From: Marsupella aquatica
Taxonomy: Eukaryota > Plantae > Marchantiophyta
Direction of reading: 5' to 3'
NCBI GenBank assembly: GCA_973895155.1
Contig: OZ316897.1
Coordinates: 6,337,327 to 6,401,326 of the forward strand
DNA length: 64,000 nucleotides
The translations under genes and the position numbers were made by a program. Within the stretch, counting starts at the first letter, position 1. Each line of letters starts with the position of its first letter. A model generated the notes under the pieces. That model was not told where the DNA came from and made no database searches. It worked only from the letters and a program-made list of their open reading frames with translations. This document shows positions 8,112-31,960 of this stretch, piece after piece.

Positions 8112-8256
8112 TGTTATGAGTCATCTAGCCCCAGACTAGACTAGAGTCATTATACCATGGTTATACCTCAACCATACCTGTACACACATATATATAAAGC
8201 AGAACTGTGACCCCTAATCGGTATCTGATTCATTCTCGATTCATTCTCTCTTAACA
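8112..8256 (+). repeat. 3' LTR (145 bp)
   Basis: Direct copy of 5162-5306, preceded by a polypurine tract at 8103-8111. Confidence 0.92.
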
Positions 8257-8259
8257 CTT

Positions 8260-11050
8260 TGAGGTTTTAAACAATCTTGATGACTTATTCAACGTCCCTT
8301 GCATGCAGTAAAAACTATCCATTTTCTACCGTGGACTGTTCGCAACGAAGGAGAATTCAAACTATTTCAATTCCAATGGCTTCCTTCATCCAGAATCCGA
8401 TATTTGTTTTGACCTGGAAAAGTCACGGCCGCAAGCAAGAAGACTTTTCAAATCATATCCTAAGCTTAACAGGCCACACATCTCCAATTGAAACAGTGGT
8501 GAGTTCAAATTCAAGTGGAAAATCCTGATTTGCATCTTTCAGTATATGATCACACACTCCATAGACTTTTTAGTGGTCATTTTGACGATCCAAGCAATCA
8601 TCAGTGGGGGAGAGGATTGACAACCTAACACATACTCCTCAGGGGTAGCTGCCTGAGCTCTTATGCGACTTTCCAAGAGAGATCTATCTTTCAATCCCTA
8701 AACCCCCTCAAGAATTATTCTAGACACGAACTTACAAAGAGGTAAGCAGTTCTCTGCGTAACAGCAAATGATGTGCTTTCGATAGAACCCATACAAATGT
8801 CCAGAACCAGGACGGTTGAAAAAGGCTCCATTATTTAATTGGCTCAAGTGGAAACCACTGTCCAGATCCGTGACATCATTTGTGGGGACCATTTATGCGT
8901 AAATTACCAAGATTATAGGCATTCTTTATCCGACCTGACGGCTACACATGAAAAATAGGATGAGGAGATTTATAACACACTTCTACGGCAGGCAATTTGC
9001 AAGGATTCTTGTGCAAAACGTCTGACTAAGTATATACTAGTGCCCTTCTTTGTCTAGATGAGCTGCAAACATCCATGGATCTGTGATGCAACGTGTGATC
9101 TGATAAATGACATCCTCTGAGATCTCCTGACCCAGGCGATGTAATTCCAAATCCTAGGACGCTTCACCCTTGATTCTTCGAGGTGGACCTCCTTCCTGAC
9201 AAAAAAATGATTGAGAGTATAGCCTGCAGGTAGAGAACAAGAGTCAGATAGAGCGGATCATAAGAAGATAAGTATCGCAAATCGAAACTGCCAATAGTCC
9301 CGACAAGGATTACTCACCATGGAGGTCCATAAGACTAATCCAGATATGTACTGATTTGCCTAGATCCTGCGCCTTGGATGGACGGAACTATTGTTGGGAA
9401 TCGGAGTACAAGACACGCAGGTGGAAGACACCTTCTTGGGACGAAGACTTTACTATAGAGAGTTAGTAAATACTTCGAGGTTTCCACCACAGGAGACTTT
9501 ACTAAAATCGCAACACAACAAGACATGCAACCCCAACACGTTACTGATCAGTGCTGCAACTTTTTGGCAAATCCATATACATTAATTAATCTCGCCAGAC
9601 TGATTCGAGCACTGGGTCCAAGCAAAGTGATTAGAAGTCGATAATCATACTGAAATAAACAAAAAGTTTGATGGCATTTCAAAACCATGTGCAATATCTC
9701 CCCTTGTAACAAATTATTATGCTTTCTAGACCGACCCAAAGCTGCCGTGATTGTCTAGTAAGACACTCCTGTGGACCTAAAATTCAAGGAGAGGCCACAC
9801 CAATCATATGCTTTTCACTATTACAGTATTTTGGTGATTCTCGGACTACTGCACTGGCCAGCATCATTTTCCTGTTCTTCCCTTCTGGTAATGCTAATAG
9901 TCTAAATTTGCACTGACGCACAATTTATCACCGACAAGCTTGGTTACAATTTGAGTTCATTCCAAAGCCAACTTTGGAGATCAAAGATCATAACCTGTAG
10001 CTTTCATAAGAGTCGATACTTGCCATACCTCGGAGGACCGCATTTAGTTTTTTATAAGGTTCTATGTCTTTGCTCTTAGAGCAAGCTATGCCTCTTAGAG
10101 CAAAAGGAGCCCGAATCGAACGCTCAGAAGCACTGTCATCAACCAACGTTCCGGAAAAAGTTCTCTTTTTACATTCCTCAAGAGCAGAGTATGCAACAAA
10201 GAGCCCAACCTGAAGTCATTATTCCACGGTAGATATTTACTGCTGGACATTAAGGTGACTGAAAAACCCTTTCAAGATAGGAACCAAACAGCAAGTTTTT
10301 CCCAGTCACAAACGTACACCACGAGAGCGAGTTCTTGATAGACATCACCATACCTTCTTGTCTATGACAACCTACCCGAAGCTGCCATGGGCAACTGGCT
10401 TTACTCTATGTGGTTCCCATCGATATGGAACAACGTAGGAAGTTATTCTCAAACGATTGGGGAAATAGCCCTCGATCCAGCTACTGGTAACGTTCCCGGC
10501 CCCGAACGACACGTTCCTGTGTCTATTATGTCGTTCAAAAGCTTACGACCTATAAATAAGCAATTTCTTTTCATGATGAGTACTCTGATGTAATAGATCC
10601 TGCAAGCAATTTACACTTGACATTTTGCATTAAGCATTTTTGAAATTTAAATTGATCACATGCCTTGGGAATTCTGAGATTCTCACATCGACTATGTTTA
10701 TCAAGCTATTTCAGGTGTCCCCTTGATTTCGTGTGTTGAACACACTAAAGGAAAAATGAGACTCAAAATTATTCGGTCATGATTTTCACAGCCATCGACT
10801 CCCATACCAAATTCATTTGGTTTTTAGATCATATTTACAGTAGTCGTTCTGCAGACGTTAAAAACCAATCCATTTTTTTAGCGTTCCCATCACAGCATCA
10901 TTGTTTAAGCCCTTTCATGTCTCTGTGCTTCCCTGGAAATTCGGGGCTTAGAATTTCATCATCCATATAAACACAATGACTCCATCTCTGTGTCTGGGTC
11001 TCTGAAGTGTAAGTTCGAGTTCCGAGCCTCTCGACCAATAATTAACTCAT
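8260..11050 (-). pseudogene. Degenerate spliced gene relic, possibly encoding a ParB-like domain (LFHIDGNH); probably continues left of the LTR insertion (~4900-5160)
   Basis: Minus-strand protein-like stretches broken by stops (e.g. LFIGRKLLNDIIDTG...PTLFHIDGNH at ~10410-10424, YQELALVVYVCDWEKL, FVAYSALEECKKRTFSG), with splice-like signals. Confidence 0.35.
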
Positions 11051-11517
11051 TTCCTTCTTTTGATTCCGTATAAATTAGGGAACCAACGTACCTAGTTCAA
11101 ACGCACAAACGGGACTACACGGCTGTCAGTTGCTTCGGCGATTCAGTCCCGCAAATTTTAGATCTCTGCTCTTTCACAGAGCGCAGTTTAATCCAACATA
11201 TTTCTGGTTCATTCCAGAGTACATTGTCGTATGCGAGAGTCAATCCTTCTTAATCACCAACCTCCATTCCTCCGTTTTAAACCCAGATCCTTCGACATTA
11301 GTGAAACATAAAGAGCCATTCAACTTTTAGGTTCGTTCTAGTGTACATCCTCCTCGTCTGGATGTCCTTCCTTATACAACAAGACGCGCTAGCTCCTTCA
11401 TTCTGTAAACTCTCGCTCATTCCCTGATTGTCTTTATGCACAAATCATATTCTGGCGAATTTCCTCATCTTACCTGGTGTGAAGACGAGATAAGAATGCA
11501 CGGCGGGGAAGGAGATG

Positions 11518-11793
11518 TCAAGATGATCGGGACGCCAGGTCAATGGAAGCCTGCTCCACGGGATCTGTGCGCCCGGGCACACGACCGAGTTTCAAGTCCA
11601 TGAGAAACTTGTGATTATTCTTATCGGAGTTCCAATATCCGTAGGCCTTGACCGGCTGCGCCCACGCCTCCTTCAGCTTGTCACACTTGGCCTTGGTGCT
11701 GTACATGTGCTCTCTGAACTTGCGGTCTCTCTCCTCCGAATCCTCCATGCTCTGCCGAATCCAGTTTCCAACGAACTCCTTGATGAACGCCAT
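11518..11793 (-). CDS. Plant-specific mitochondrial complex I subunit P1 (11 kDa, At1g67350-like)
   Basis: MAFIKEFVGNWIRQSMEDSEERDRKFREH...WAQPVKAYGYW...VPGRTDP matches the recalled MGFIMEFAEN...EERDRK.REH...RPYGFW...GRRDPY family. Single coding exon. Confidence 0.85.
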   Translation of the reverse strand: MAFIKEFVGNWIRQSMEDSEERDRKFREHMYSTKAKCDKLKEAWAQPVKAYGYWNSDKNNHKFLMDLKLGRVPGRTDPVEQASIDLASRSS

Positions 11794-11910
11794 CGCACCC
11801 CCTCGATATAATCGACAAAGTGTGCGCCTTCAGCTAGTCTTTCTCTCTTCTTTCTACACGTTCGGTTTGTTCGCTGGCTCCCAAAACATGTCTTGTATGC
11901 TCACAAAGCG

Positions 11911-11950
11911 GGGGTAATTGTAACAGTAGAATTTTTGCTCGCACGGGCAA
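11911..11950 (+). repeat. Left terminal inverted repeat
   Basis: GGGGTAATTGTAACAGTAGAATTTTTGCTCGCACGGGCAA aligns to the reverse complement of 23267-23318. Confidence 0.85.
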
Positions 11951-12655
11951 GATGTCACCTTGTATTGGGGCCCAAAAAAGGTCTGGAATATTCCTCGCTA
12001 GCATGGAGACCGTGTTCGATCAATAAATATAGACGGCTACCCATGGACGATTCTAGTCCCGTGAACGCAATAGATCAAAATGACATATCTTCAGGCCAGC
12101 GAAATCGCTAGTCTAATGATGCCAACACATTGAGCCACTCATACGACGTACGGTCTCCACGTACAGGCTTCCACATGTGAAAATTCCCACCCGAGGAAGA
12201 GTAATAACAAAAAAGTACTTCGCGATTCCCGCGTGAAAAGAATCAACGTGTCATTACTACCGAGGAAAGGAGGATTAAGGCCGTTTGGACACTAATTAAG
12301 TCACTTGCAAGTGAACGGGACACTTACCGTTCGAACCAGACTCGAATCCAAGGCGTCGAACCGTCCACTTAAACAAATCCGCTAGCCCAAAAACCACCAG
12401 TCTTCCAAATCATTCTCCCGATCACTTCCACCGCGTCCGACTTGATCTCTTTCATTCGGAACTGCTATCAGTGTTCCAAGTTCTCAACACTCTCCAGATC
12501 TAGTTCAGGTAAGCACGGGTCTATTCTTTGAGCTGTTTTAAGGGAAGAACTCTCCGACAAGGCATGATATTCATCGTATTCCACCGTGAATAATGTTTCC
12601 ATTTGTTGAATCCTGTTCTCTTTAATCATTGTTTGGGTTTCGTAAGTGCAGAGAA

Positions 12656-13087
12656 ATGTCTGGTGTTCCAAGCAATCCTCCTCAGGGGAAATGGCGACTT
12701 GAGATCCGTCGTTACAACCCGGCGACAGATGGCCCGCTTGAAGATGACTCTCCTCCGAAGCAGAAACCCGATGCAGAGACTATGAAGGTCTCCTCAGGCA
12801 GCAGTGTCCCAACCGAACTCGGTCAATCTGTTGGATCGTCATCATCATTGAGGAGAACACCTACTCCTCCAAAGTTAATTCCAGTAGCAAAGTCTCCACC
12901 GAAGCCAAAGGTGGATACCACACAGCGCGAGGTTGTATCGAAGAGGAAGAGGCTCGCAGAAGAGGATCAGTATTGGATTGACAGGGAGATCTATGACTAC
13001 TGGACCGAGGAACGCCTCGCCTCGGGGGTCTCACTATATGGGGACCTCCCCATTGCCTGCGACGTTTTTAGGGCTCGGACCCCCTAA
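12656..13087 (+). CDS. Small orphan ORF inside the transposon (Pro/Ser-rich, KRKR NLS-like, acidic-aromatic C-terminus)
   Basis: ATG at 12656 opens a 143-codon frame, with an upstream AG|GTAAG donor-like site near 12509 and an AT-rich 3' region. Confidence 0.5.
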   Translation: MSGVPSNPPQGKWRLEIRRYNPATDGPLEDDSPPKQKPDAETMKVSSGSSVPTELGQSVGSSSSLRRTPTPPKLIPVAKSPPKPKVDTTQREVVSKRKRLAEEDQYWIDREIYDYWTEERLASGVSLYGDLPIACDVFRARTP

Positions 13088-13575
13088 AATGTAAGAATTT
13101 TTTTTTAATTTTTTAACCCCTATAAAGTTGGAATATTCTTGGAATATTCTAAAAATTGGATTAAAACGGCCCTAATGTTCTTATAAGTCTCAAAATTGAA
13201 TTTGAAAGACCCTATTGTTCTTCTACAAAAATTCTAAAGTCTTCCCTTAGAACCAATAAAATGACCCTATCCTTCGTCGCACGTGATATGCCATTTTTGT
13301 GGAAGTGAAACCCCCAAGCGCCTCGCCTCTTCGGATTACGATTCAGAGTCAGACACTGACTCCGATGCATCGAAGGCGTCCAGCCCCTGAGGGTAGAGTC
13401 AGGTTGTGGATTTACTGAAATTTTTGTAGTTACAAGCGAACCGCATGTCCTCATGTACTTTCAATATGTATGAGAAGTAAAGTTTGGGTGGTCCTTTCAT
13501 TTCTATGTGTTTCTCTGGAATGCCATTTCGCACATAGTACTTTTATTTTGAAATCACTGTTGGACCTTTCCCAGA

Positions 13576-13915
13576 CTAGCGATATCGCTAGTATAGAACT
13601 GTGTTCATCTTTGATAATCAATTCGATGGAGTATTACCATAACAACTTCAGGGGAAACTTCCCTCCCTAAACCCTAAACATCCTGTCACATCCTGTCCTA
13701 AATTCCGTTGATCAGACTAGCGATCTCGCTAGCCAAAAACTGGCATCATTTTAATGATCAAACCGTGAACTCTATAGAAACTTGTCGATAGATTAACACG
13801 TATGAAAGTAGGATGTTTCTGTCAGGATGCAGCAAACTTCCTAAGACTAGAGAGATCGCTAACGGTAAACAGAAAACTCAAACACCATAAAAGTTACCAT
13901 TGTGGACCTCGCTAA
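13576..13915. promoter_or_regulatory. Cluster of 16-bp palindromes CTAGCGA-NN-TCGCTAG (parS-like)
   Basis: Perfect sites at 13576-13591 and 13717-13732, a 2-mismatch site at 13847-13862 and a half-site at 13909, all between the convergent 3' ends of the small ORF and the transposase. Confidence 0.75.
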
Positions 13916-14013
13916 CATTATGATTCACTCGGTGAAAACAAATTGATATTTGTGAAACCACAAACTCGAGTAATCCATCCCACCACCCTATAATTAGCAT
14001 CTCCAATAAACGA

Positions 14014-17000
14014 CTAGTCCCCTATCTGTAACGGAATTAAACTCCTCACTTCCCCAACAGTCAGAATTGGTTGTTTGACAAGGTCGTCCTTCTCTAGGTT
14101 GAGTGAAAACTTGTTTAAATACACCCACAGCAGATGTTTACAAGACATGTATGGTTTCCCTCGTGTATGCCTCTTATAAAAGTCTTCACGAGAACACGAA
14201 GGGAAACAACAGATTTGCACCCAATATGTGTGCGGAACTTGTGAATCAGTCTCGTGAGTGGCGATCAAGTATCTCCAACCCCATCCATTTCCGGTAGTTA
14301 CCTTCTCATTTCCGACAACTCTCATGTATTCTTGTGTAGCGGAAACGATGCGCTTGAGCAACTCTGGAGTATTGCTGAAACGCTGTCTTGCAACCTTACC
14401 ATTTCGAGTTTTCAACCGACGGTCCACATTAGTTAGATCAATTCGTTCGGGGAATGAGTTAACATCAATTCGTAGGTTGACCCGATTGGGGGACGGGAAC
14501 TCTCCAACTTGATTTGCATCCACATAGGAGAGTCCACTGATCTGGAATCCTAATCCCAGCAGAAACTCTATCTCGGGATGGGAGAGGCAAGTCCCACGCT
14601 GAACCTTGAGCGACTCGGGTGGGGGGGGTAGTTGAGCTAGAGTTCTGCGTCCTCGGCTCTTGTGACACTTATTATTAGGACAGAAGTACAACAACTGGCG
14701 ATGTGGAGACGATAATCGCAACCCGTGAATGGCGACTCCAACAATTCCCCCTTGCGCGGACTTACATCCAGTCTCCTTGATGCGATTTCTACATTCATCT
14801 CTTCCAAAAATGCTTCGGTCAACCGACCCGTTGCAAACAGGTCCAGCACCTCTACCGCTCCGCCTGAGATGCCAGGTCCCATAAGGAACATCAACCTCTC
14901 GGATGGAAGGGATCCTTTGGGGGGCATCCCGATGGTCATCCCCGACATCACACTGAGGTTGAGTCCCCATCTTCACGGTATCATTGACATTACGACTTGC
15001 ATCATCACCATCATCATCTGAAATATGGATAACTCCAGCAGAACAACCTCCGACAGGTGTTGCCAAAGTTGTATTATTTGCTACTTCTGGGTCCGCAAAA
15101 GTCTCCGAAACATTGACGAAGCGAAATTCAGGATAGAGATTACGCCTTTTTAGTCCTGAAGGAGAAGCTGTTGTGCGTGACACCTTGTCATGTCTGTGGG
15201 AGTCATTCTCGTGGATTATAGCTGAAGCTTTCCCTTTCCTCTTCGTGGATGTTGTTCGGAGATCGCCATGTAATGGAACTGTTCTATAGAATTCATACTT
15301 AGTTGAAGACTCAAGCAAAAGATTTGCTGCCTTTTCGTAAGCATCCATGGATCCCATAGCATCAGCGTTCCTATATGCTAATTCAAAAATGGTCGGCCCC
15401 TGGCCTCTGTGAACACCTTCACTGTAGGCAGTAAAAGCAGCAATTTGCCCCGCAGCACGATTCTGGTCCACCTCACATGCTTCAATCAATCCCACTAGTT
15501 TCTTCATTTGGCAGGATCTCATGGATGCATGGACTGATTCCGCTCCAGTACAATTTGGCATCAAGGCTGACTCCATTGCGGTTTGCGTCTGCAAAAAGTA
15601 GTCCCCAGTCAGACCTGATATGCTAGCGAGGTCGCTAGCAAAAACAATGACGTCAAAGAGAAATGAAATTGGACACTTACAACGCGGATGAAGTTCCCCC
15701 ACTGCCTCCACCTCACGACCCACCAAGATAACCATCCTTGGAGAGACTTCAATTTCCCAGCATAGCAGTTTCCTTCCTTCCACCAACGATGGATTTCGTC
15801 AGCAACACGGTAGGCCTGAACATATGTTGGTGCTGTTCTTAGCCTTTCCCACAGTTTATAGTGCTCTCGATGGCGATCTTCCCGAATACCCTCCAATGTG
15901 TGACGACAAAGAGATTGAGCAAAGTGAAAGGCGTCACTGTGCTCCTTCTGTGGGTGACGGACACCTCCAAAAAAAACATTTCGAATGGCGATCCATCCAG
16001 CCTCGGCATTATCGGCAATAAATCCTCCAATGAGTGGGTCATGCACATCATGATCAGAGGCAACTTCAATCATATATCTCCATGCGGTTTCAAGAGATAA
16101 GGAGTCCTCCGCACGGAGCTCACAAGTGAAGATGGTACAAAGGGACCTGTAATTATGGTCGTACACATGGGCGCTGAAAGTCAGCCACCCAGTGCTTATT
16201 CTCCGCATTACATCAGAACTGACCCATGCTCCTTCCAGCTCACCTCCACTCTTCATCTGCCTGAGAATATCGACACCAGAACCTGGGCCATTTGTACTCA
16301 TTTTGAAGACATGAGCCCTATCGGTCTTGCTCCCCTGCCCAGGGAAAAGGTACCTCTGAACGTAAGGAAAATTATTCCGTGCTTGCATCTCACGAAGAGA
16401 ATCCAACTCACCCTTTTTTGGGTTATCCATTTTCACGCTCCGGAATATGGCCTGGAATTTCTCAACAGTAGACACAACCTTCATCGATTCCCAAATCTCT
16501 CTCTCTTCTTCTTTTGATAGTTCTGAAGAAGACTCTGGATGCAAAAGAGAAACCAGGTTTCCTATAGACTTGTTAAGAACACGCCCTGGCGTACACACGG
16601 GATTCGCTTTATGAACACCAGAAACTATCTCCTCCGCCTGCTTTTTTGCCAATCGAGATTTCCCCTTCCAAACAACGTGGTCATGGAAACCCATGTGAAC
16701 AGCCAATCGAGACATATGTTTCGCAACATTTGACTCAAGAGACGGCTTAGGATAGACGTACAAAAGCTTAGCCGGACATTCACGGATGCAGAGAGGCCTC
16801 TCCTCACAGAATCCGCACACCAACCCTCCTTCCTCCACAAGCTCACCAAGATGAAACGGCTCAGTAAATTGTCCCTTTCCTCGGAAGGAAGAGTCATTTT
16901 TTGAACCGGTGTGCTTCAACTTTCTACAGACCAGATTTTGGCATTCAAGTACACCGGCACATCTGACTTTTGACACAGACCAGTGATTGCGAGGTTTGAG

Positions 17001-17726
17001 ATTAGCTGAAGTTGTGAGAAGTCTCGTCCATGGATAGCCGTCATTATCCCTATCCATGTCCTGAAGACCATATCCTCGACGAAATTGACCTTCCACCGGA
17101 GGAAGCTCAAAAATGCAGTTTCCGTTGTATAAAGTGGGCAAAGTCTGCACTTGAATCTCCTTCCAATCGTTTCCCCTGCGGAAATTTGCCAACTCGCTTG
17201 ACCCAGTAATATTGAGAAAGGCATCATATGCACTAACTCGATAAAGAACTGGCTCAGATTGAAACTCGTTTTGACTCACTGCTTCAAAAACGGATTTCTC
17301 AGAAGACTTTGTCGACACAGAAGAGACATCCCTACCCACACTCTCAGGGGAGATGTCAATAATTTCTGGTACTGCAGGTGACGGTCGAGTCGGGGATTCT
17401 GGATCGGAAACATTGATATGTGCAATGTCATCCTTACATGAGACTAGCTCTACATCTGAACCACCCTTTAGGTCCCAAGCTCTTTCTGGCAATATTCCTG
17501 AACCATTATCCGACACCTCGTGACTTCTGGATCCATCCCGAGAGTAAAGAACGAACAACTTCCAGATGAAATCATCTTTCAAAAGCCCAAACCTCGATGA
17601 GAGAAAAGACTCCTTGACAGAGATAATAGTATTCTCCGGAACATCCAGAACAACAACATCACCCGTCGTCTTTCTCTCGATCACAACCTTCGATCCCAAT
17701 GAAGACATGCTGGAAGTTTTGGACAT
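14014..17726 (-). CDS. MULE-type DDE transposase with GCM/WRKY-like zinc domain and C-terminal SWIM; exons 17726-15681 and 15588-14014 (~1206 aa)
   Basis: GCM-like KVRCAGVLECQNLVC...CGFC...CPAK...HDH. Catalytic D (VSSD), D (FIADNAEAGWIAIRNVF) and E (NCTGAESVH); DAFH sits at the CxxH position; SWIM-like PSCSREDF...CKH. A phase-0 GT-AG intron at 15589-15680 joins the two long ORFs in frame. Confidence 0.85.
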
Positions 17727-17903
17727 TATAGTCTACAGCAATCCACAATGTGAGATACTTTGCTCTCTTCTTTCTCCAAATACATATGAGGAAATGTGCT
17801 TGTGTAGGTGTTGGACTCAACATATTTATTTAATAAATGCCTCTTATTCCCGTTATTTGACCGTTATTTTGTCTTATATGACTCTATTTGCGGAATGATA
17901 AAG

Positions 17904-18014
17904 CTAGCGATCTCGCTAGCTCAATGAACCAAGTAAAATTGTTCAAATCCTTACAAAACACCCTTCAGGAGTTAATGTATTTAGTGGTCATTTTTTGGCT
18001 AGCGATGTCGCTAG
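17904..18014. promoter_or_regulatory. Two perfect 16-bp palindromes in the divergent promoter of the transposase and ParB-MTase genes
   Basis: CTAGCGATCTCGCTAG at 17904-17919 and CTAGCGATGTCGCTAG at 17999-18014. Confidence 0.75.
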
Positions 18015-18410
18015 CAAAAACATTTCCTCATAAGAGACCATTGTGACCGTTTATATCCGTTGGAATTGGTCAACGGGTACCTACATGTCAACGGTACGGT
18101 ACAGTACTGGACACCTGTCTCATTGTCATTAGATACTTTTCTTTCAGTCGTGAGTTCGGTGGTTCGTATTTCCGGAAGTACATGTATACCTGACGTTGTC
18201 TGAAAAATGATTGCGAGAAGAGTCGTACAAAATATTTGTATCTCTTTTCACGACCGGGCGCAGCATTCAGGTGAAAGCAATAGACGAGGGTACGATTCTG
18301 TCTTTGATTGGAAGATCGATTCTCGGGTGTTTTTATGTTCGCAAAGTGTGTCGCCCTCGACCTTGACCTATTGATACCCTTATCACTTCACGGACCCCCT
18401 GATAGAGCCA

Positions 18411-21400
18411 TTGTCTTCACCCGAGAGCTTGTCATCAATAGGATCGTTCAAGTCAGTCGAGTCAAGCCGAAGGGAGACCAGGTCTATAGTGAACAAGAAG
18501 GCGCTCCAGGCGGGATTGAAAACACCGAGGAGGCCCAAGATGGTGAACCAAGTAGATGTTGTGAATCCTACGTTTCAACCTGGAGCTTCAGAACCCTATT
18601 CTGTTGTCATCAATCGCCATCTTTTCCCTTTTGGAAATGACGAATTTGGATTCCCGCTCGCTCCTCCGAGGATTCCCCTTTGCAGAATGCGAAACATGCA
18701 GATCGTTCGGTCCTTACAAACTAACTCGACTGCGATCGAGACACTCAAGAATGAATTCCGGACGCAGGGATACATCGAAGATGCGCCTCGATTTTACGTC
18801 CAAATGACCGGCGAAGATGGCCTTGTCCATATGTGCGAGGATGTGATTCGGGAGTCGTGGGATGACATGTGGATTCTTCAGAATGAAGAATTCAAGAGGG
18901 AATGTGATTCTCACGAAGCTTTCAAAATTTTGAAAGACAAAATGTTTTGTGTTTTCGATGGAAATCATCGTCTGTACTCATGGATGCAGCTTGCGGACGA
19001 GAATCCCCATGATGTCAAATATCATCCTCGAGTTGTTTGTCGAATTTTCAAGGGTGACAAGAACTCATTCGTGCAGATTGAGTCGGCAATGCATGCGCTG
19101 AATAGGTTTGTTTCTTTTCCTTCAAGCTGTGAATTGTATATAAAATTCTTTCATTTCCTCTTGTTAGCGATCTCGCTGACCTGTTTCTTTTGCTCAGGTT
19201 GACTCAATGTCACGTTGAGAATTCTTGGGTCCTTGAAGCAGAGAGAGTCCACAAGGTTCTCAGTAATGACCTTTCTGTATACAAAGATATCATCGATGCA
19301 GACAACTACAAACTTTTCCAGCAGAAGATGGCAAATATTAGGAAACCGGCTTGGTATTCGAAGAACATGACACTCGATGCCTACACGTACATTCTGTCTG
19401 CTGCTAATATTGCAGCGCAGACGGAAGATTTGAAGAAGAAGTTTCAGTTGAAAGAAGCGCAAGGAGAACCTCTTTCAAAAGCTGCACAAGACATGGCAGT
19501 CAAAGACATGATGAAGGAGCAACTGGCAGATTGGAATGTGAAGGTGCCAAAGATTGGAGCTCTCCTGAATCCTGAGTTTGGTGACTTTTTCCAGAAGTGT
19601 GTTGAGATGCACAACTACTGCGAACATGAGAGGAAGGAGGCCCAACGAACAGACGATAAAGGAAGGGGTAATGTGTCATGTGGTCTCGATCGTGCGAGGC
19701 TATTTACGGGTGTCTCATCGTTGACTCCCCAGCTCAGATGTGTACTCCTCGAGGCACAATGCAGACCTGAGCTTCGCAAGAAGTACTTCCACCCTGGTCA
19801 ATTCTCGGACAGCGAAACAAAACTTTGGCTTCACCGATGGGCTGTTTGGGAGCAGGTTGAGTCAATTTGTTCTTCGCTCATGTCTGAGATTATTTCAGAG
19901 TTGATCCCAACTGTTCCAGATGCAAGGATCCTTACTTCGTCTGAGAAGACAAAGCCATCGCTGATCCTTGACATAGAGGAGGACTTTGAAGATTTCCAAA
20001 CGAGAGTGAAATCTCGTTTTTTCAAACAGATTTGGCCACCAAAGTCGGGTGAGAAGATTGACATCTCACTTTTTCGGAGGAGGGCGAAGAGATATACGTA
20101 TTGTTTTTTTGTGGATAGAGAAGTTGCTGACAAAACATATTGGTGGTCCTATCCTGCTTGCTTCTCGCCTTGGATAGCAGGAGTGAAAGAGGATCCAACC
20201 TCTGTTAAATATGGAGAGTACTCGATGTACCCATGTGAGGGAGTGGAGGCTCCAAGGAAGATGAGTGAGTGGGAAGTCCTTCACTGTCCATGGTATTTAG
20301 AATCAGACAAATGGGCAGTGACATTTGACACAGCAGAGAAGGCAGCATTTCATATGATAAATCAAGGCTTGATACCAGAGTCGTACATTACAGAGTCCAA
20401 ATTAGCTCCTGCAGAAGCCGAGGCTGGCGGATGTGATGCAATGGAGAAAGCTGTTCTTGGTGTAGCTACCATTGTGGACCGGAGTAGATCGAGGAGACCT
20501 CGGAAAGTGCCGGTGAAGGACACGTCCAAAGATGGATCAGTCTTGTTTGGGAAGCAAAGTAAGTCTTTTTCTCCTCTTTTTTTCATACCTCATTCGGAGT
20601 AATTTTGTCTCAGTCACCTGTCTGACATTAACATGTTTTTCAGAGAAGAGAAAGGCTGCAGCCTCTGGCAGTTTGAAGAGTGGGGCGGATGATGGAGAAG
20701 AACCCAAGTCTCCTGATGTTGAGGTCACAACAAAATCTGCTGTGGACCTGGGTTCAATCAAGCGTTTAAAGAGGAAGCGCAATGTCCAAATTCTCTCCGA
20801 CTCGGATGAGGAGGAAGCATGCGTCGCGCAAGGAGTAGCACGAATGTGTGGTCTTAAGAAGGACGGTGAGAGGCATTTCTTGGCGAAGAGCAATCTCACG
20901 GAAACTGCAAACTCAATTAGCCAGAGGAAAGTAAGACCTCCCTGGATGGGCGATGCGGATCAGTGGTTGTCTGGAATGAGCAAATCGAGCGAACACCCAA
21001 ACGCCGTGATGATCAACGGAAAAAATTACGCTGGAATTGGTGCTCACTTGGGTTTCATATTCCTTCCCACGGGTCATCGAACAAGCGTCACAGACCGGGA
21101 GGTCCCGAAGTGGAATGTTTGGAGTGAGAAATTACCATATTATTTCTTTGGAGTCATGCGTCCGATGCTTGCCGATGATGGTTATGTCGCAGTTCTTCAC
21201 AGCTCTGACTATAACCATATGAGGCAAATTTTTTCTGCAGTCGAACAGAAGAACAAATTTAAACATGTCCGACAGTATTCGGTTTTGCTTTCATCTCCTT
21301 TGTATCAAGCAGATATGGACATTGAGGTAAGATATCCTCCATATTTTTTGTGCAATTTTTGCTAGCGAGCTCGCTAACCAAAAGTGCCCATTTCTTACGT

Positions 21401-21926
21401 ATTATCGTTTTCAATTCAGGTGGTTACTCTCATTATGGATGTCTTCTGCAAGGTGGAATTCTCGGCAAAAGTCCCGAAACATACAGGATATGTTCCAATG
21501 ACTTCCTCGGAGGATGCCTGCCATAAATTGATGTTGAGTGTTTGCTACCCAAAAACTGATCCCAGTCCCAGGGCGGCTTTCGCAGGTTCCAATAGATTGT
21601 CAGTTGGGTTCATGCAAGCCGTAATGGAGATCCTTACTTTGCCAAAGGACATTGTCATTGACTGGACTGTTGGAGATGGAAGTGCTTTTGCCGCTGGGGA
21701 ATACGCTGGGAGATTTGTTGTGGGTGTTGAAGATCGAGACATTCTTCATCTGTGTGCACAAAGAACTTTGGCAAATGTGTTGGATAGACATGCCCAGAAG
21801 TTGAAAGGGGCCGCAGACCCAAAGAACGATGATCCCAAAGATGAAGGGTCTGATGATGAGTTCACCATCCCAGGAGATGATCAGGGAGGACCTTCAGACG
21901 AGAAGGATGAATTCGACCTGGAGTAA
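18411..21926 (+). CDS. ParB/Srx-like domain + helical region + N6A/N4C DNA methyltransferase-like fold; exons (18411 or ATG 18540)-19105, 19198-20558, 20644-21326, 21420-21926
   Basis: Four ORFs join in frame through canonical GT-AG introns (19106-19197, 20559-20643, 21327-19 bp before 21438, i.e. 21327-21419). ParB-like RIPLCRM...IETLKNEFRTQGY...FCVFDGNHR. MTase-like PMLADDGYVAVL and MEILTLPKDIVIDWTVGDGSAFAAGEYAGRFVVGVEDR. The true start is uncertain (in-frame stop at 18372). Confidence 0.8.
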
Positions 21927-22004
21927 AGCACTTGGCCTTTGATGTAGAACTCCCTATTTGGTGTTTTTCTTTTGTTTGTAGAATTTTCGGATGTTTAGTA
22001 TTGA

Positions 22005-22367
22005 TCCGATTCTGGTGATTTCTTCAATGATAGGCGTTCGGATTGGTTTTCGGAGGAGAGATTCCGTCTTCGGAAAGAAATCGAGGATCATTTTCTTGTG
22101 ACCCCTGACAAGGGATTTGCGCTTCCATGCTATGCTGAAAAGACTGCAAAGGAGGTTGATGAAGCGCCCGTCGTTTTGACTTGGGAGGGGAAAGGTCTAC
22201 TGTCAGTGAGGGGTGTTCGGAAAGCCCTTTACTGTCCTCAGTTCATAGATGATGAGGCTGGGACTGTAGCACAGTATGTTGACGGTTCGGCTGAGGAGAC
22301 TGGTAGGGAGTCCAGTAGCGATCCTAGTAATTCCTCAGATGATTTGGAATCAGAGGATTCTCAATGA
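22005..22367 (+). CDS. Small acidic orphan ORF (or last exon of a spliced gene) inside the transposon
   Basis: Open frame from 22005 to stop at 22367 with no ATG (SDSGDFFNDRRSDWFSEERFRLRKEIEDHF...). Coding-like composition. Confidence 0.3.
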   Translation, partial: SDSGDFFNDRRSDWFSEERFRLRKEIEDHFLVTPDKGFALPCYAEKTAKEVDEAPVVLTWEGKGLLSVRGVRKALYCPQFIDDEAGTVAQYVDGSAEETGRESSSDPSNSSDDLESEDSQ

Positions 22368-22639
22368 CTCATGGTCAATTTCAGATGCAATCTCATTCCA
22401 GAAGATATTTGTCATACCAAAGTTTTATTAAAGATGGATTGTGAAAGGTTTTTTGACCTGGTTTTGTTGACAGTGATGATGCCTTTTCATTCAGTTCAGT
22501 GTAGTGAAGATCTCGATTTTTGAGTTTGTGAATATTTAAGTATCTGCATTTTCGTTTTCCTTAACTGTTTCACAGTATATATTGACAATCTTACTTGGGA
22601 ATGCGCCTTAACTACCCTCAAATTACGCGCAAACTTGCC

Positions 22640-23172
22640 TCGCTAGCCTGCTGTCCTCGCTAGCAAAACTCCTGTTTGCTCGCACAATAGAATACCTCTT
22701 GACTAGTGCTGTTCCAAGTCACTACAATAAATTCTAGCAAAAATGAACGCAGTCCTTCGAACTGTGGTCGGTTGCCACGGCTGTCGTTTTTATCTTCTTC
22801 CTGGACAGCATCAGGCAGTGTTCAAGACAGCATCAGGTAGTGTTCAGGCTACACCATGCGCTAATGTTATTTCTTTGTTGCTCGTTTTACATTTCTCTCC
22901 CGACGAAATAGTCTGGTTGAGTGGCCCTTGAGAGAATTTTACTAGTTAGTCGCTAGCAAAACCTTCTGTTCCCAGCTATGGTGTGGAGTTAAGCCTATGG
23001 ACCATGAGGTATTCTATGTTGCAAGCAAACAGGGGATTTTGATAGCGAGGAGATTTGATAGCGAGTAGATTTTGATAGCGAGACAATAATGGTTCCACAT
23101 TTCAGTTACTTTTTGGTGCCTTTACATTTTTGTGTTTTTTTAAAGGCTGCAGATGGCTAGCTAGCTCGCTAG
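22640..23172. repeat. Subterminal cluster of palindrome half-sites and degenerate sites
   Basis: TCGCTAG at 22640, 22657 and 22950; three tandem TTTGATAGCGAG units at ~23038-23082; CTAGCTAGCTCGCTAG at 23157-23172. Confidence 0.7.
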
Positions 23173-23266
23173 CAAAAAGGGAGTCCCCAAAAGGGATGTT
23201 ACCAACCAGGTAGTTGATAGCAAGGCAGTTACATGTAGAAAAATAGGGGTCATGCAGGATTTGTTT

Positions 23267-23318
23267 TTGCTCGTGCGAGGAAAATTTTTACTCTTTGCTC
23301 GCACATTACAATTACACC
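23267..23318 (-). repeat. Right terminal inverted repeat (with 12-bp insertion)
   Basis: Reverse complement reads GGTGTAATTGTAA[TGTGCGAGCAAA]GAGTAAAAATTTTCCTCGCACGAGCAA. Confidence 0.85.
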
Positions 23319-24069
23319 TGGACCATGACTATGATGACATGACTATGATGTACCAAAAATTGGGGTGTGGGTGGAAAATGACAAGGGGGCAGTGAGGTGA
23401 GTATACACAGTGACTAAAGGTTGAATGCAAATCTGTGAGCTAGATGGATTGAGCTAGATGGATTGAACCGGCAACCGGTCTATATTGACATCCAAACCAA
23501 GAAATTGAGGAGTAGGTGGTGGTGCTAGGGACCTAGGGAATGCATGGGAGGATGCACTTCTTTGTCCTCAACTCTATTCATGGTCAAAGAACTGGATGCA
23601 AATCTATCTCAACAAGGTATTAATTTTGCCAACACTACTCAAATGAAGGGCTAGTTCAATCTAACTAATAAAGCTACTGTTTTGCAGTAACAATACAGTT
23701 AACTCTTTCTAAGTGCACTCTCATGGGAAGATGGCATTTAAACCCTATCCAGCATGCACTTAATCAGGTATTGCATTCCTTGATAAGCACACACCCCCTA
23801 AAACATGCACTTATTAATAAGCGTGGTTGATATAGATTCATTGTTAAATGTGTAATTATCCAGGGTTCACATGGATTTGACACCAAGGTGTGTTGGTCAT
23901 GGCAGATTGAGCACCATCCAGTGAATAAACAGCAATATGGACTCTGAAGCTCCCCATGCACATTGTAAAATACCATAATATACCTAGATCACACAAAGAA
24001 TTCATGTTTAAAATAAAATTTATTACAAAATGACAACATTATGTGTCAATCCTTAGTAAAAAGAAGTGG

Positions 24070-26749: not shown

Positions 26750-28877
26750 TGTCTGTCACTATTATGTCCAGTTTTGCTATCCAGTTTTGGTATTAATTCC
26801 TCTCCATTGCTAATCATCTTGCAGCCTCACTTTCTCAGCACAACCTGCAAAATTACAAAGCTGAAAAATATCACAAACGGTTTATTCATTTAAATGGGCA
26901 TTCTCATTACAACAACGACCTCAACCTTCCATTTGAGAGCAAGTACTGTAGAGATGCAAAGATTTCCGAGTTCTTCTTTGAGGGAACCAAGTACCTCAGT
27001 TTTGGAGAAGCACTCCTCCAACTCTCGGATAAGGTTTTCAAGATCCCTAGCACAGTAGACTTACAACAACACCACTTTGATGATGTAACCGTCAGGGTTC
27101 AGACACACTTGTACTGTTGGTTTGAGCTAGTGCATCTAGAACTCTAACTTCCATGGCACCTCCTCCAGCGGCACCACAACCAACCTTCTAAAGCACGGCC
27201 AGGCTCAAACGCCACTTGGGCCCCCTCAAGCCGCTCCCCACCACCGGTTGCACCGCCCGCTCAGGTGAAATCTGTGGTAAATGCGGTCAACCTGAGCTCA
27301 GAGGATGAGGAGGTTGTCCCCCTTGTCCGCAACCCACCTTCTACCCAACAACACGCGACGGGTACCACGCCACCTCCCCAACAAGCACAAACCCGAGAGA
27401 CAGCCTTGATTGACACTACAATCATGGTTGCAGCCCCATCGCCCATATTGATGGCGGTAGAAATACCGTCACCACCATGCATTAAATGGGGGAGAATGTC
27501 CACAAAAACATTCTCCACCCAAAACATACATGTCACTTGAAGACCCAAGGGTTTGAGCACCTCTTCGCTTTTCCTTGGAACAATTGCAGGTACTATGGAT
27601 AGGACATGACGCAATTTATCCAAAACTTTGACGAGGCCAGCCAAAAAACCTGTGCACAAGGACGACTGATGTCCTTAAACAAAGCACGACTCAAGCTCAT
27701 CTTTGGCCTACCCGAAGGAAAGGATCGGATAGAGTCACAGGCACCAGGGGGCAAAGGAGCCAAGTACCATTCGTCTAGCTTCACACCCAATGGGTCAGTA
27801 GACAATGGCTTCCTTATGTGGACATGTATCATCCCGCAGGTAGTAGAGCGACTAGAGTTCCAACAGTATGCGCTCCACATGATGGAACCACGGGAGAGAT
27901 CCGCTGCCCAGGTAATTCAGGTAGATAATTACCGGCCTAGGAAGTGGGCTTCGTTCTTCGTCAAGAAATTCCACAAAGACATGGAGCGACAAAGAAAGAC
28001 TCTATTTCTTGGGGGAAAGGTGTACTTAGCCAGCCACATAGAAATCATTATGGAGTGGTACGCCTGTTTTGATCGTCGGATGCTTCCCTGGTGCAATGAG
28101 CCCAAGCTCATCTAGTGCAAGTGGGTCTTCCCAGCCCAGGAGAGGTGGGCCCAACCCGAGGCCCAAGACCTAGTACTCATGGCCCCCATCCTCCCTTCGA
28201 CCCCAAAGCCAACTACTAGGGCTTCCTCTTCCTTGCCAGAGACAACAGTTATTGCGGCCTTGGAAGCTCAAAACCAAGTTCGGGCAACCACTTTGAACAG
28301 CCCCATGATAGCTGACCCCGAGCCAAAAGCCCTCGCAGCAGAGGATCCCGCATCCCCCGCACCAGTCCAACAGATCTCCTCCCCTCATTGGACCTACCTC
28401 ACCCTGTCCATGTCACCCCAAAACTGGACTTGTCTACCCCTAACCCCAACCAAATAAAGGTAGGTCCTTGCCCAAACCCTAGCGGGCATAGCTTGGTGAA
28501 CCCAAAATTCTTTGGTCCGGGTACGTATTTGAATGGGTTGCTTAGCAACTTCTCCTTGGAAGTTGGTCAAGATATGGGGGAGTTTATGGCCCACAAGGTG
28601 GCTTACTTCTTTAGCCAAGCATTGGTTGCAGCAAAATGGCAGGGCATGCCCAGTTTGAAGTCATGAAGAGAATAGAGCAGTATCGGGGAGAGGCAGCCCA
28701 ACTATTAAACAAAGCCTCAGCCCAAGAAACTAAGCTATCACTTCTTTGGCCCCAGCTTGCAACCGCCCTGGCCCAGATCGCCGACGCTGAAGCCAAGGCA
28801 GACTTGGCCGCACAAGCTGGAGCCAGAAAGGATGCAGAGATCGCACAACTTTGGACATAGATTGATAGCTTGAAGGG
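26750..28877 (+). pseudogene. Retrotransposon accessory ORF, copy 1 (frameshifted, truncated at 28877)
   Basis: Fragments LMSLNKARLKLIFGLPEG...KWASFFVKKFHKDM and a coiled-coil tail. TATA-like TATAAAAG at ~26633. Clearly homologous to 29883-31960. Confidence 0.6.
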
Positions 28878-29882: not shown

Positions 29883-31960
29883 TCACTTTGCCGCATCCGT
29901 CTCCTCTGTGGCTTCCTGGCATGCCTCTTCCAGTTGCTGGACGTTGCTCGTCAGCTTGTCCACCAACTGGGCCTGCTTCATGGCTTCTCCTCGAAGCCGT
30001 GCCACTTCCGCCTTTAGGAAGTCTATCTCGGTTGTGTCCCGCTGGGCCCGAGCGTCGGCCTCCTCCACATCCTTTTGCCAGATGACGGCTTGTCCCTTCA
30101 AACCGTCAATCTGGGTTTGGAGCCGTGCGATCTCGGCGTCCTTCCCGGCTCCGGCCTGCTCTACCAAGGCTGATCGGACCCTAGCTTCGGCCACCTGATC
30201 TTCAATGGCCACTACCTGAGGCCACAACAGTTGGAGTTTGGTCTCCTGGGCTGCAACTTCATCTTTCAGGTGGGCAGACTCAATCCGATACCGCTCTATT
30301 CTCTACATAGCCTCGGCTTGCGCATGTCCTACCCGCACGGCTGCAACCAATTCCTGGTTGACGAAGTAGGCCACCTTCCTTGCCATGTACTCTCCGGTAT
30401 CCCGTGCAATTTGTTGAGAGAAGTCTCCCAACAACCCATTCAAAAACGTGCCCGGTGCAAAGAGTTCCAGGCTTTCCAGACTATGCCCCTCTGGGTTTGG
30501 GCAAGGACAGACCTCAGCTTGCGCGGGAGTTGGAGTGGTGACATCCAGCCCTTGAAGTATGGTGATAGAGGGGGCTGGGTTTGCTTGGGCTGGGCGGTTC
30601 TCCTGAACAGTCGTGGAGGTTGGCGGGACGTCCTCTGCAACTGCAGTCTCGGGCTTGGGTCCGGCCTCTGCCAGCCCGGCTTCAATCGCGCTGACTTGGT
30701 TGATCGCGTCTAGGGTCGCGATAACTGCATTGTCTGGTACATTCGGAGGGGCGGCAGCGGCTGATTGCGGGGCCGGGGTAGTAGGTCTCACGGCCGCCAG
30801 ACTTTGGGCCTTGGGCTGAGGTCGCCTCTCCTGGGCCGGGAATACCCATCGCGATGGGGTCAGCTCAGGCTCGTTGATCAAAACGGGTGTACGACTCAAT
30901 GATTATTTTGATGTGGCTAGCAAAGTATGCCTTCCCGCCGAGGTACAAAGTCTTCCTTCTCCGCTCCATCTCCTCGTGGAACTTCTTGGCAAAGAAGGAC
31001 GTCCACTTCCTAGGCCGGTAGTTCTTGACCTGGATGACCTGGGCGGCGTATATTTTTCCCCTCAGTTCCATCATGTGGAGGGCGTACCGCTGGAACTCCA
31101 GCCGTTCTGCTACCTTCAGGATGAGGCATGTCATCAAGAATCCGTTGTCCACTGCTCCCTTGGCCCCGGGAGCCCGTGATTCCACCCGATTTATTCCTTT
31201 GGGTAGGCCGAAGATCATCTTAAGACGTGCCTCATTGAGGGACATCACTCTCCCGTGCGCTCGGGTTTGTTGGCGGGCTTCGCAAAGTTCGGGATGAACT
31301 CCGTCATGTCCTGCCCGTAGTACCTGCTTCCATTCCAAGGGAGAGAGGCGAGGTGCTCAAACCCTTGGGTCTTCAGGTAGCATGCATGATTGGGGTGGAG
31401 GATGTTCTTGTGGACATTCTCCTTCATGCGATGCATGATCAGCTTGGCCACCGCAACCGTGGCCAAAGGCAGCCCGGATACGGCTGCAGGTTCCTTTCTC
31501 TTCCTACCCTGAGACTGGTTCTCGGGGTGACTTGAAGAGGGGGACATCTCCCCATCCTCTCTATCGGGCGGCGGCAGCGCTACCGCCATAAGCACTAGTG
31601 CTGGGGATGCTACTGTCACCGTGTCATCCACCCGGGCTTGTGTGAGTGGTGCTGGGTTGCCCGGCGTATGCTGATTTGCACCTCGAGGTCACCGGTTCAG
31701 GGGAGAGTGAGCTTCCTCGTCTTCGGAACTGATGTTCACCGCGTTTACCATGGATTGCACCCGGAGGGGTGGTGCGACCGGTGGTGGAGATCGGCTTGGC
31801 TGAGGCCGAGGTGGTGTTGGTGCGGGCACCGATGAGTTGGCGACAGTTGTAGCTGGAAGAGGCGCCATATGATTCAGCAAGTCTGAGGGGAAGCCGAGTG
31901 AGGTTAAAATAGATGTCTCGCCCGTAGCTGCGGTACCAAACGGGTTTGTTGAACACCACC
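29883..31960 (-). pseudogene. Retrotransposon accessory ORF, copy 2 (inverted relative to copy 1)
   Basis: VMSLNEARLKMIFGLPKG...KWTSFFAKKFHEEM, CPNPEGHSL...PGTFLNGLL and a coiled coil (DAEIARLQTQIDGLKG). Several frameshifts and stops. Confidence 0.6.

What the first reader, a model, noticed from the sequence alone, without database searches (positions are those of the whole stretch)
18540..19105. ParB/Sulfiredoxin-fold domain in a eukaryotic nuclear, intron-containing transposon gene
RIPLCRMRNMQIVRSL...AIETLKNEFRTQGY...RFYV...FCVFDGNHRLYSW...VVCRIF reproduces the order of ParB N-terminal elements, including the G-x-x-R nucleotide-binding motif. The protein also has basic NLS-like patches (RSRRPRK, KRLKRKR). 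Nucleotide-gated DNA clamps of this fold are essentially a prokaryotic concept.
Basis: partly seen in the sequence, partly recalled or inferred. Interest (0 to 1): 0.75.

Follow-up and report, generated by a model that had tools for sequence, protein, structure and literature searches.

The report
Plant transposon's ParB–methylase accessory gene
A repeated 10.8-kb jumping gene, likely from a liverwort-like plant, carries a second spliced gene whose protein joins a predicted bacterial ParB-type fold to a worn DNA-methyltransferase domain and likely binds a private palindrome scattered through the element, a design already reported in algae.

Summary
The quoted motifs lie at 18540-19105, and a confident model (pLDDT 96.6) matches only ParB/sulfiredoxin-fold chains among its top eight structural hits, although no Pfam ParB profile scores. 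The domain begins a four-exon protein of 1038 aa (about 1084 aa in sister copies). A helical middle and a beta-class N4/N6 DNA-methyltransferase domain with a degenerate catalytic motif follow it. The gene lies head-to-head with a Mutator-type transposase inside a multicopy element at 11911-22698. Nine copies of one palindrome sit in the element's non-coding DNA. Related elements keep the layout (8 of 14 informative clusters), the intron position and their own different palindromes. Best reading: a transposon accessory protein that likely recognises its own element through these sites to control its chromatin or expression. Sliding-clamp action, NTP binding and methylation are untested. The kind is in print: a 1104-aa ParB plus methyltransferase protein in an Ectocarpus Sola element, and PAG3 with inverted repeats in red algae. 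My searches did not find the land-plant, Mutator-borne version with clade-specific palindromes. New variant; moderate interest.

The parts
11911..22698 (.). Whole Mutator-like DNA transposon, about 10.8 kb, multicopy, with imperfect short terminal inverted repeats; no target-site duplication left at this copy
   Evidence: Summed contig depth in run X1 is 12.7 to the left of about 11950 and about 420-1040 inside, apart from the nested insertion. Loose ends with unrelated flanks lie behind 22698/22699. The four end sequences are alike.
18402..19105 (+). Exon 1 of the accessory gene: basic disordered N-terminus and ParB/Srx-fold domain. The family start codon is at 18402 (ATA in this copy); the first ATG here is 18540
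   Evidence: start codon
19198..20558 (+). Exon 2: conserved all-helical middle domain of unknown fold, then a basic patch
   Evidence: Homologous to Riccia proteins at E down to 4.5e-38 in a local search; model pLDDT 75.5; no fold match
20644..21326 (+). Exon 3: low-complexity linker with KRLKRKR, then the first half of the methyltransferase domain; motif IV reads FLPT here instead of DPPY
21420..21926 (+). Exon 4: second half of the beta-class N4/N6 methyltransferase (SAM-binding motif I region kept) and an acidic tail
   Evidence: NCBIfam PRK13699 E=1.3e-4; family profile hits DpnA 9e-5 and CcrM 7e-4
14014..17726 (-). Transposase, 1207 aa as read here (intron 15680-15589): Cys/His zinc-finger region resembling GCM (recalled pattern), MULE-type DDE core, C-terminal SWIM-like finger. 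A further intron near 14955 is possible
   Evidence: 28 homologs; ESM Atlas MULE clusters 0.94-0.92; conserved D505, D572 and C/D-x-x-H
12096..21377 (.). Nine copies of palindrome CTAGCGA-N2-TCGCTAG at 12096, 13576, 13717, 13847, 15623, 17904, 17999, 19164 and 21362. All are non-coding: left end, 3' of the transposase, between the two genes, and in three of the four introns
   Evidence: 9 matches in the window (8 here plus 23157) against 0.11 expected. 19164 added at a looser cut-off. Placement.
23006..23318 (.). 313-bp non-autonomous derivative with the same two end sequences, an 8-bp target-site duplication (TGGACCAT) and one full palindrome at 23157
13013..13318 (.). Unrelated very high-copy insertion of about 300 bp with a flanking 11-bp duplication; it interrupts a small acidic ORF that starts at 12656
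   Evidence: Joint 13012->13319 skipping 306 bases in all four runs

Best explanation
The domain is the front end of a transposon accessory protein, made of a predicted ParB/sulfiredoxin fold, a helical domain and a beta-class DNA amino-methyltransferase domain, that likely binds the element's own palindromes and so likely acts on its own copies only. Shown: the gene, its place head-to-head with a Mutator-type transposase in a multicopy element, the methyltransferase homology, the palindromes, and a different palindrome in each related family. Predicted: the fold. Inferred: a dimer reads the symmetric site, probably through the helical middle domain; the ParB pocket binds an NTP and gates loading or release; the methyltransferase-like domain then marks or shields the element's DNA to keep its two divergent genes expressible, or to regulate them. 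My odds for the steps: binds its own palindrome 0.6; binds an NTP 0.7; closes and slides as a clamp 0.25; active methylation by intact family members 0.3.
For: Fold: the top 8 of 16 VIA rows are ParB/Srx-fold chains (KorB Z 7.3, rmsd 2.6, 91 aligned; PadC 7.0; Srx 6.3) and the best clearly unrelated row is Z 2.2. Pocket residues are conserved: R57 69/76, G77 63/79, R144 68/79, N188 61/68. The KorB alignment ends at model N188 against KorB 146, a residue needed for CTP hydrolysis (PMC11790492). Layout: the same transposase lies upstream on the opposite strand in 12 of 20 loci with at least 4.2 kb upstream (8 of 14 clusters) and on the same strand in none. The intron donor two bases after the terminal Asn codon is kept in 17 of 18 loci examined. 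Palindromes: 9 against 0.11 expected; all non-coding, where non-coding DNA is 28% of the element. Ten of 32 related loci have 3-17 copies of their own palindrome against shuffle maxima of 1-2 for those ten; three control stretches of the window give 1 each. The motif-by-locus table is nearly diagonal, and the L016 motif recurs 8-11 times in L023/L025/L038-40, whose ParB exons are 80-84% identical to L016 where compared (L025, L040). The same hypothesis was proposed independently for algal elements.
Against: No binding, NTP or methylation data. Palindrome and gene are inherited together, so their co-variation does not show binding. 22 of 32 loci had fewer than 3 palindrome copies (many are short or decayed), and L005 and L046 owe their counts partly to tandem arrays, L050 probably to low complexity. 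Six of 14 clusters showed no transposase upstream. Motif IV is D-[LMVF]-[PS]-[STFI] in all 23 stored relatives that matched my pattern and D-Y-P-E or D-V-P-S in four loci, never DPP(Y/F/W); this copy has F in place of D, so catalysis is doubtful. No Pfam ParB hit, Foldseek E>0.05 against PDB, and Z<8 can reflect a common arrangement (tool note). The half-site resembles the terminal-repeat motif CTCGCAC, which favours the transposase as reader.
Confidence: 0.55

Rival explanations
1. The palindromes are transposase-binding sites (internal and subterminal repeats read by the zinc-finger region of the transposase), and the ParB-methyltransferase protein acts without sequence specificity or through the transposase.
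For: Half-sites cluster near both ends and in the non-autonomous derivative, and resemble the terminal-repeat motif. Subterminal repeats bound by element-encoded proteins are common in DNA transposons (recalled).
Against: Full palindromes lie mostly deep inside: in introns of both genes and between the genes. In relatives the arrays flank or interrupt the ParB gene (L005, L002). In algae ParB-like genes and inverted repeats travel together across unrelated transposase types.
Confidence: 0.2
2. It is a true ParB-like sliding clamp: loaded at the palindromes in an NTP-dependent way, it spreads over the element and carries the methyltransferase domain along about 10 kb (KorB-like long-range action).
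For: Best structural match is KorB, with the R and N pocket residues kept. The 16-bp palindromes are parS-like in size (PMC8494293 listing). All three domain positions of a clamp (NTP domain, central domain, C-terminal domain) are filled.
Against: GNHR replaces GERR, and orphan ParB folds often bind ATP or nothing in assays (17 of 28 purified showed no binding; PMC12704722). In phage ParB-dioxygenase pairs NTP-pocket mutations did not matter (PMC13229309). This is a sub-case of the best explanation, not an exclusive alternative.
Confidence: 0.25
3. The methyltransferase domain is a catalytically dead DNA- or SAM-binding module, and the protein is an anti-silencing or self-repressing DNA-binding factor (VANDAL/VANC-like in effect).
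For: Motif IV is non-canonical across the family and lacks the acidic residue here, while the SAM-binding motif I region is kept. One fern homolog (P0126) carries an added NIF phosphatase-like domain. Inactive MTase domains are known in DIRS1 elements (PMC4738411). CpG o/e is 0.77 in the element against 0.48 and 0.60 in the flanks (weak, confounded by coding content and age).
Against: The D and P of motif IV are conserved in nearly all relatives, which suggests selection on the pocket. The F may be a private lesion, since this copy has others (start codon, SWIM Cys).
Confidence: 0.35
4. The gene is a passenger (captured host or phage gene) with no role in the element.
For: No expression data were obtained.
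Against: Fixed head-to-head linkage with the same transposase in 8 of 14 clusters at about 30% protein identity, conserved intron and pocket residues, and many copies in the Riccia proteome.
Confidence: 0.05

Closest known systems
ParB-like + N4/N6 methyltransferase accessory protein of Ectocarpus Sola1-1_Ec32 (PMC12477816; passages read)
   Same: About 1100 aa, N-terminal ParB-like domain, C-terminal N4mC/N6mA-type methyltransferase, transcribed opposite to the transposase; proposed to bind and modify its own element
   Different: Brown alga and a Sola transposase there; a land plant (inferred) and a Mutator-type transposase here. Sequence homology between the two was not tested. The passage mentions no palindromes.
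PAG3 and PAG2 of red-algal Plavaka, Mutator and Zisupton elements (Petroll et al., bioRxiv 10.1101/2025.02.11.637652; passages read)
   Same: ParB-like domain with no InterPro hit, found only by remote homology; adjacent inverted-repeat arrays; a PF01555 methylase in the same element
   Different: There ParB is fused to a 2OG oxygenase and the methylase is a separate gene with a SET domain. Here ParB and methylase are one polypeptide, and the palindromes are dispersed, including in introns.
Phage/prophage ParB-N6_N4_Mtase fusions (PMC12704722 section 7)
   Same: Same two domains in the same order; beta-class methyltransferase; viral structure matches include a ParB-bearing DNA methylase
   Different: About 450 aa of helical domain plus a linker between them, spliceosomal introns, non-canonical motif IV; no prokaryotic or viral sequence relative found
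KorB / canonical ParB CTPase clamps (PMC11790492; passages read)
   Same: N-terminal fold, GxxR arginine and Box III asparagine positions; palindromic sites on the same mobile element
   Different: No HTH detected, no ParA gene in the element, GNHR instead of GERR/GARR, 45-aa insertion; clamp behaviour untested
DUF3723 (PF12520) cargo proteins of fungal Starships (bioRxiv 10.1101/2021.12.13.472469; passages read)
   Same: Top ESM Atlas neighbour cluster (0.95; 31% of members carry DUF3723); also a conserved accessory gene of a eukaryotic mobile element
   Different: A lead only: no alignment and no Pfam hit; different element class
MpDN4MT1 of Marchantia (bioRxiv 10.1101/2021.02.12.428880; passages read)
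   Same: Prokaryote-type beta-class amino-methyltransferase in a liverwort
   Different: Has the canonical TSPPY motif and is a host gene; this family has D-x-P-x. Direct homology was not tested.

Membership tests
ParB/Sulfiredoxin fold superfamily | Overall fold | tested here: met
   Model pLDDT 96.6; top 8 VIA rows ParB/Srx-fold, Z 7.3-5.0 against 2.2 for the best unrelated row; BFVD best E 6e-3, prob 1.00. Atu1540's assignment to the fold is recalled.
ParB/Sulfiredoxin fold superfamily | GxxR phosphate-binding motif at the start of a helix after a strand | tested here: met
   DGNHR at the strand-helix junction; G 73/79, R 68/79
ParB/Sulfiredoxin fold superfamily | Pfam ParB_N/ParBc profile hit | tested here: not met
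   None in 79 members at E<=1; only DndB (5 members, best 0.066) and DUF1015 (4 members, best 0.0056)
Canonical ParB CTPase clamp | Central HTH that reads parS | tested here: inconclusive
   Middle domain is all-helical; no significant match
Canonical ParB CTPase clamp | CTP binding and hydrolysis, N-domain closure, sliding | not testable with these tools
Canonical ParB CTPase clamp | Linked parA gene | tested here: not met
   The element's large ORFs are the transposase and this gene only
Beta-class N4/N6 DNA methyltransferase (PF01555) | Motif order IV before I; homology to DpnA/CcrM | tested here: met
   PF01555 precomputed on 4 of 26 Riccia relatives
Beta-class N4/N6 DNA methyltransferase (PF01555) | Catalytic (D/N/S)PP(Y/F/W) motif IV | tested here: not met
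   FLPT in this copy; D-x-P-x in relatives
Mutator/MULE superfamily | DDE transposase with (C/D)xxH signature (signature recalled) | tested here: met
   ESM Atlas top four clusters carry PF10551; conserved D505, D572, C/D598 and H601. Direct Pfam support is weak: one member at E=0.034.
Mutator/MULE superfamily | Terminal inverted repeats and 8-11 bp target-site duplication (range recalled) | tested here: inconclusive
   Short imperfect repeats; 8-bp duplication at the 313-bp derivative, none at the full element
Algal ParB-type transposon accessory genes (PAG3; Sola1-1_Ec32 protein) | ParB-like N-terminus plus a DNA-modifying domain inside a DNA transposon | tested here: met
Algal ParB-type transposon accessory genes (PAG3; Sola1-1_Ec32 protein) | Sequence homology to the algal proteins | not tested
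   Their sequences were not retrieved; they may be in supplements that I did not see

The most novel reading that the evidence does not exclude
Mutator-like transposons of non-seed land plants run a private ParB/parS-like system in the nucleus: an NTP-gated clamp loads at family-specific palindromes, slides over the element and deposits or protects an epigenetic mark, so each family recognises only itself. This would be the first eukaryotic nuclear sliding clamp of the ParB type.
Probability: 0.2. Interest if true: 0.85.

Novelty: new variant of a known kind. Interest (0 to 1): 0.45.

Why it matters
ParB-like accessory genes of eukaryotic transposons were noted in algae in 2025, and the passages I read report no functional test. 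This element extends them to land plants and to a Mutator-type family. It supplies what a test needs: a compact element, a defined 16-bp site, and sister families whose sites differ in step with the protein, which allows specificity-swap experiments, possibly in Marchantia. If binding is confirmed, it would be a second case, after VANDAL (as stated in the Bostrychia preprint), of a transposon that addresses its own chromatin.

Tried and rejected
Profile and sequence searches for ParB failed: Pfam, NCBIfam, PDB sequences (the galectin-8 hits at E 0.04 are chance), and the first word-indexed protein search (none). No relatives were found in viral contigs (55 candidates, none confirmed) or prokaryote genomes (7 candidates, none confirmed); both scans used one narrow pattern, so absence is weak. 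The middle domain matched no solved fold; absence of an HTH is not shown. No RNA holder was listed, so expression and splicing rest on GT-AG sites, frame restoration and homologs. No whole genome is held, so copy number was not counted; contig depth is not a copy number. I first took 23318 as the right end of the element and rejected it after one search showed low depth at 22706-22960 and separate ends. No Rfam family lies in 11000-24000. The two small ORFs near the ends are unrelated. Zisupton/KDZ was considered (8-bp duplication, SWIM) and set aside: no KDZ Pfam hit and MULE-type neighbours. A KorB sequence for residue-level alignment was not obtained. Literature: searches found the algal reports but no paper on this family in liverworts, ferns or mosses; the library lacks most subscription papers, and Iyer et al. 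2011 (cited by PMC12477816) was not seen.

Full report
1. Observation. Three GT-AG introns of 85-93 bases join four exons into one open frame of 1038 codons ending at 21926. The frame is open upstream of 18540. At 18402-18404 this copy reads ATA, while essentially all other laid contigs in four runs read G at 18404, which gives an in-frame ATG; homologs have a similar N-terminal extension. The family protein is therefore about 1084 aa and needs no further 5' exon. Residue numbers below count from 18540.

2. The domain. Profile searches do not call it ParB: Pfam gives nothing for the window or for 79 aligned members, apart from weak DndB and DUF1015 hits, and PHROGs 'ParB-like partition protein' scores E=0.12. 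An exhaustive HMMER search found 214 relatives at E<=1e-3, of which 150 were listed. Of 10 looked up, 5 are Riccia sorocarpa and 3 Adiantum proteins, and 2 have no organism. I aligned 78 of the 150 with the window and folded the domain: pLDDT 96.6, pTM 0.90. Foldseek gave no E<=0.001, but its leading rows are PadC, ParB-CDP, sulfiredoxin, Noc and KorB. VIA-align over 48,161 chains gave 16 rows at Z>=2; the first eight are KorB (Z 7.3, rmsd 2.6, 91 aligned), PadC, Srx, SerK, a ParB-N domain, Atu1540, Srx and SbnI, and the best clearly unrelated row is 2.2. Viral models give the same answer (best E 6e-3, prob 1.00). The Z values are modest, so the case rests on the unanimity of the family and on motif placement. 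R57 (69/76), G77 (63/79), GNHR (73, 78, 73, 68 of 79) and N188 (61/68) are conserved, and the KorB alignment ends at N188 against KorB residue 146, which is needed for CTP hydrolysis (PMC11790492, passages). ESM Atlas neighbours were clusters with DUF3723 (0.95, 31% of members) and ParB_N (0.92, 11%).

3. The rest of the protein. Exon 2 encodes a conserved all-helical domain (model pLDDT 75.5) with no significant structural match. Exons 3-4 encode a beta-class amino-methyltransferase: NCBIfam PRK13699 E=1.3e-4, and a 22-row family profile hits DpnA (9e-5) and CcrM (7e-4). Riccia P0153 (1207 aa) has all three parts in one chain. The SAM-binding motif I region is kept. Motif IV is not canonical: D-[LMVF]-[PS]-[STFI] in the 23 stored relatives that matched my pattern, similar in four loci, and FLPT here. 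I could not tell whether the F is private to this copy.

4. The element. Laying four DNA-type runs shows single-copy depth (12.7 in X1) up to about 11950 and about 420-1040 from there to 22700, apart from a nested very high-copy insertion; this points to tens of copies but is not a count. A second laying shows loose ends with unrelated flanks behind 22698, low depth at 22706-22960, and a separate piece from 23006 to about 23318. That piece has the same two end sequences and an 8-bp target duplication; the full element has no duplication left. On the minus strand, head-to-head with the ParB gene, is a 1207-aa transposase with 28 homologs, one named from the liverwort Calypogeia fissa. Its nearest ESM Atlas clusters carry the MULE domain, and it keeps D505, D572 and a C/D-x-x-H signature; the GCM-like and SWIM labels are recalled patterns. 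This copy is slightly decayed: a lost start codon, Arg for Cys at SWIM position 1149, a shortened left end and the nested insertion. Most other copies read TAG at transposase codon 894, so a further intron there is possible. The host is inferred to be a non-seed land plant, probably a liverwort, from the named homologs only.

5. Relatives keep the layout. A metagenome scan gave 72 loci in 48 clusters. Among the 20 loci with at least 4.2 kb upstream of the ParB exon, 12 (8 of 14 clusters) have this transposase upstream on the opposite strand and none on the same strand. The first intron's donor is at the same position in 17 of the 18 loci whose match reaches the end of the exon and that I examined. 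Methyltransferase fragments lie downstream in several loci (L007 at E 6e-4 before iteration; L011, L038-40, L065 and others after seeding). No prokaryotic or viral relative was confirmed.

6. The palindrome. CTAGCGA-N2-TCGCTAG occurs 9 times in the window at up to 2 mismatches against 0.11 expected, all between 12096 and 23172; a tenth, looser copy is in intron 1. All nine in the element are non-coding, where non-coding DNA is 28%. Half-sites number 25 in the 11.4 kb and 9 in the other 52.6 kb. The motif is absent from all 72 related loci, but 10 of 32 loci tested carry 3-17 copies of a different palindrome near their ParB gene, against shuffle maxima of 1-2 for those ten and 1 in three control stretches. 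Some counts come from tandem arrays (L005, L046) and one is probably low complexity (L050). The cross-table is nearly diagonal, and the motif learned from L016 recurs 8-11 times in L023, L025 and L038-40, whose ParB exons are 80-84% identical to L016 where compared (L025, L040); as an AT-rich motif it also has 2-3 background hits in a few other loci. Co-descent on one element explains this as well as binding does.

7. Mechanism. The most likely reading (0.55) is self-recognition: the accessory protein binds its family's palindrome, an NTP in the ParB pocket gates that binding, and the methyltransferase-like domain marks or shields the element. The gene, layout, homologies and palindromes are shown; the fold is predicted; binding, NTP use, dimerisation, sliding and methylation are inferred. 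The rivals are transposase-read sites, a full sliding clamp (a sub-case), and a dead methyltransferase. Published cautions apply: 17 of 28 purified orphan ParB-fold proteins bound no NTP (PMC12704722, passages and section 7), and pocket mutations did not affect a phage ParB that activates a DNA dioxygenase (PMC13229309, passages).

8. What is known. The Ectocarpus transposon paper describes a 1104-aa ParB-like plus N4/N6-methyltransferase protein on the strand opposite a Sola transposase and proposes self-binding and self-modification (PMC12477816, passages). The Bostrychia preprint describes ParB-like PAG3 beside inverted-repeat arrays and a PF01555 methylase gene in Plavaka, Mutator and Zisupton elements (passages; its supplements were not seen and may bear on homology). 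ParB-N6_N4_Mtase fusions are common in phages. Searches found no account of this family in land plants. Eight earlier notes of this scan shown for another genome describe a similar layout with other transposases; they are unchecked and not used as support.

9. Verdict. Real, and correctly recognised as a ParB/Srx fold, but a new variant of a recently described kind. What is added is the land-plant range, the Mutator-type carrier, the non-canonical methyltransferase motif and clade-specific palindromes that make the self-recognition idea directly testable. Interest 0.45.

Noticed in passing
window:27148-31800: Two inverted, about 77% identical gene-like blocks facing each other (arms 27227-28166 and 30804-31798) with coiled-coil ORFs between them; the paired ORFs are 66% identical and have no Pfam family. 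Possibly another repeat element.
   Followed up: partly
window:13013-13318: Very high-copy insertion of about 300 bp (summed depth about 35,000 in X1) with short inverted ends and an 11-bp duplication; absent from other copies of the host element.
   Followed up: partly
window:12656-13391 and 22005-22367: Two small acidic ORFs just inside the ends of the element, unrelated to each other and without a family; the first is interrupted by the insertion.
   Followed up: partly
L005:1755-3960: Tandem array of about 138-bp units, each with GAGGTGCC-N6-GGCACCTC, between the transposase and ParB genes; further copies lie in a downstream intron.
   Followed up: yes
P0126 (Adiantum capillus-veneris, 1176 aa): Homolog with a C-terminal NIF/FCP1-like phosphatase domain (Pfam E 2e-12) after a partial methyltransferase region.
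   Followed up: no
window:5161-5310 and 8111-8260: 150-bp direct repeat, 97% identical, 2950 bp apart; the 7000-8330 region is multicopy in all four runs, possibly the ends of another element.
   Followed up: no
window:53850-54221: Host exon with a PC4 transcriptional coactivator domain (Pfam E 2e-16).
   Followed up: no
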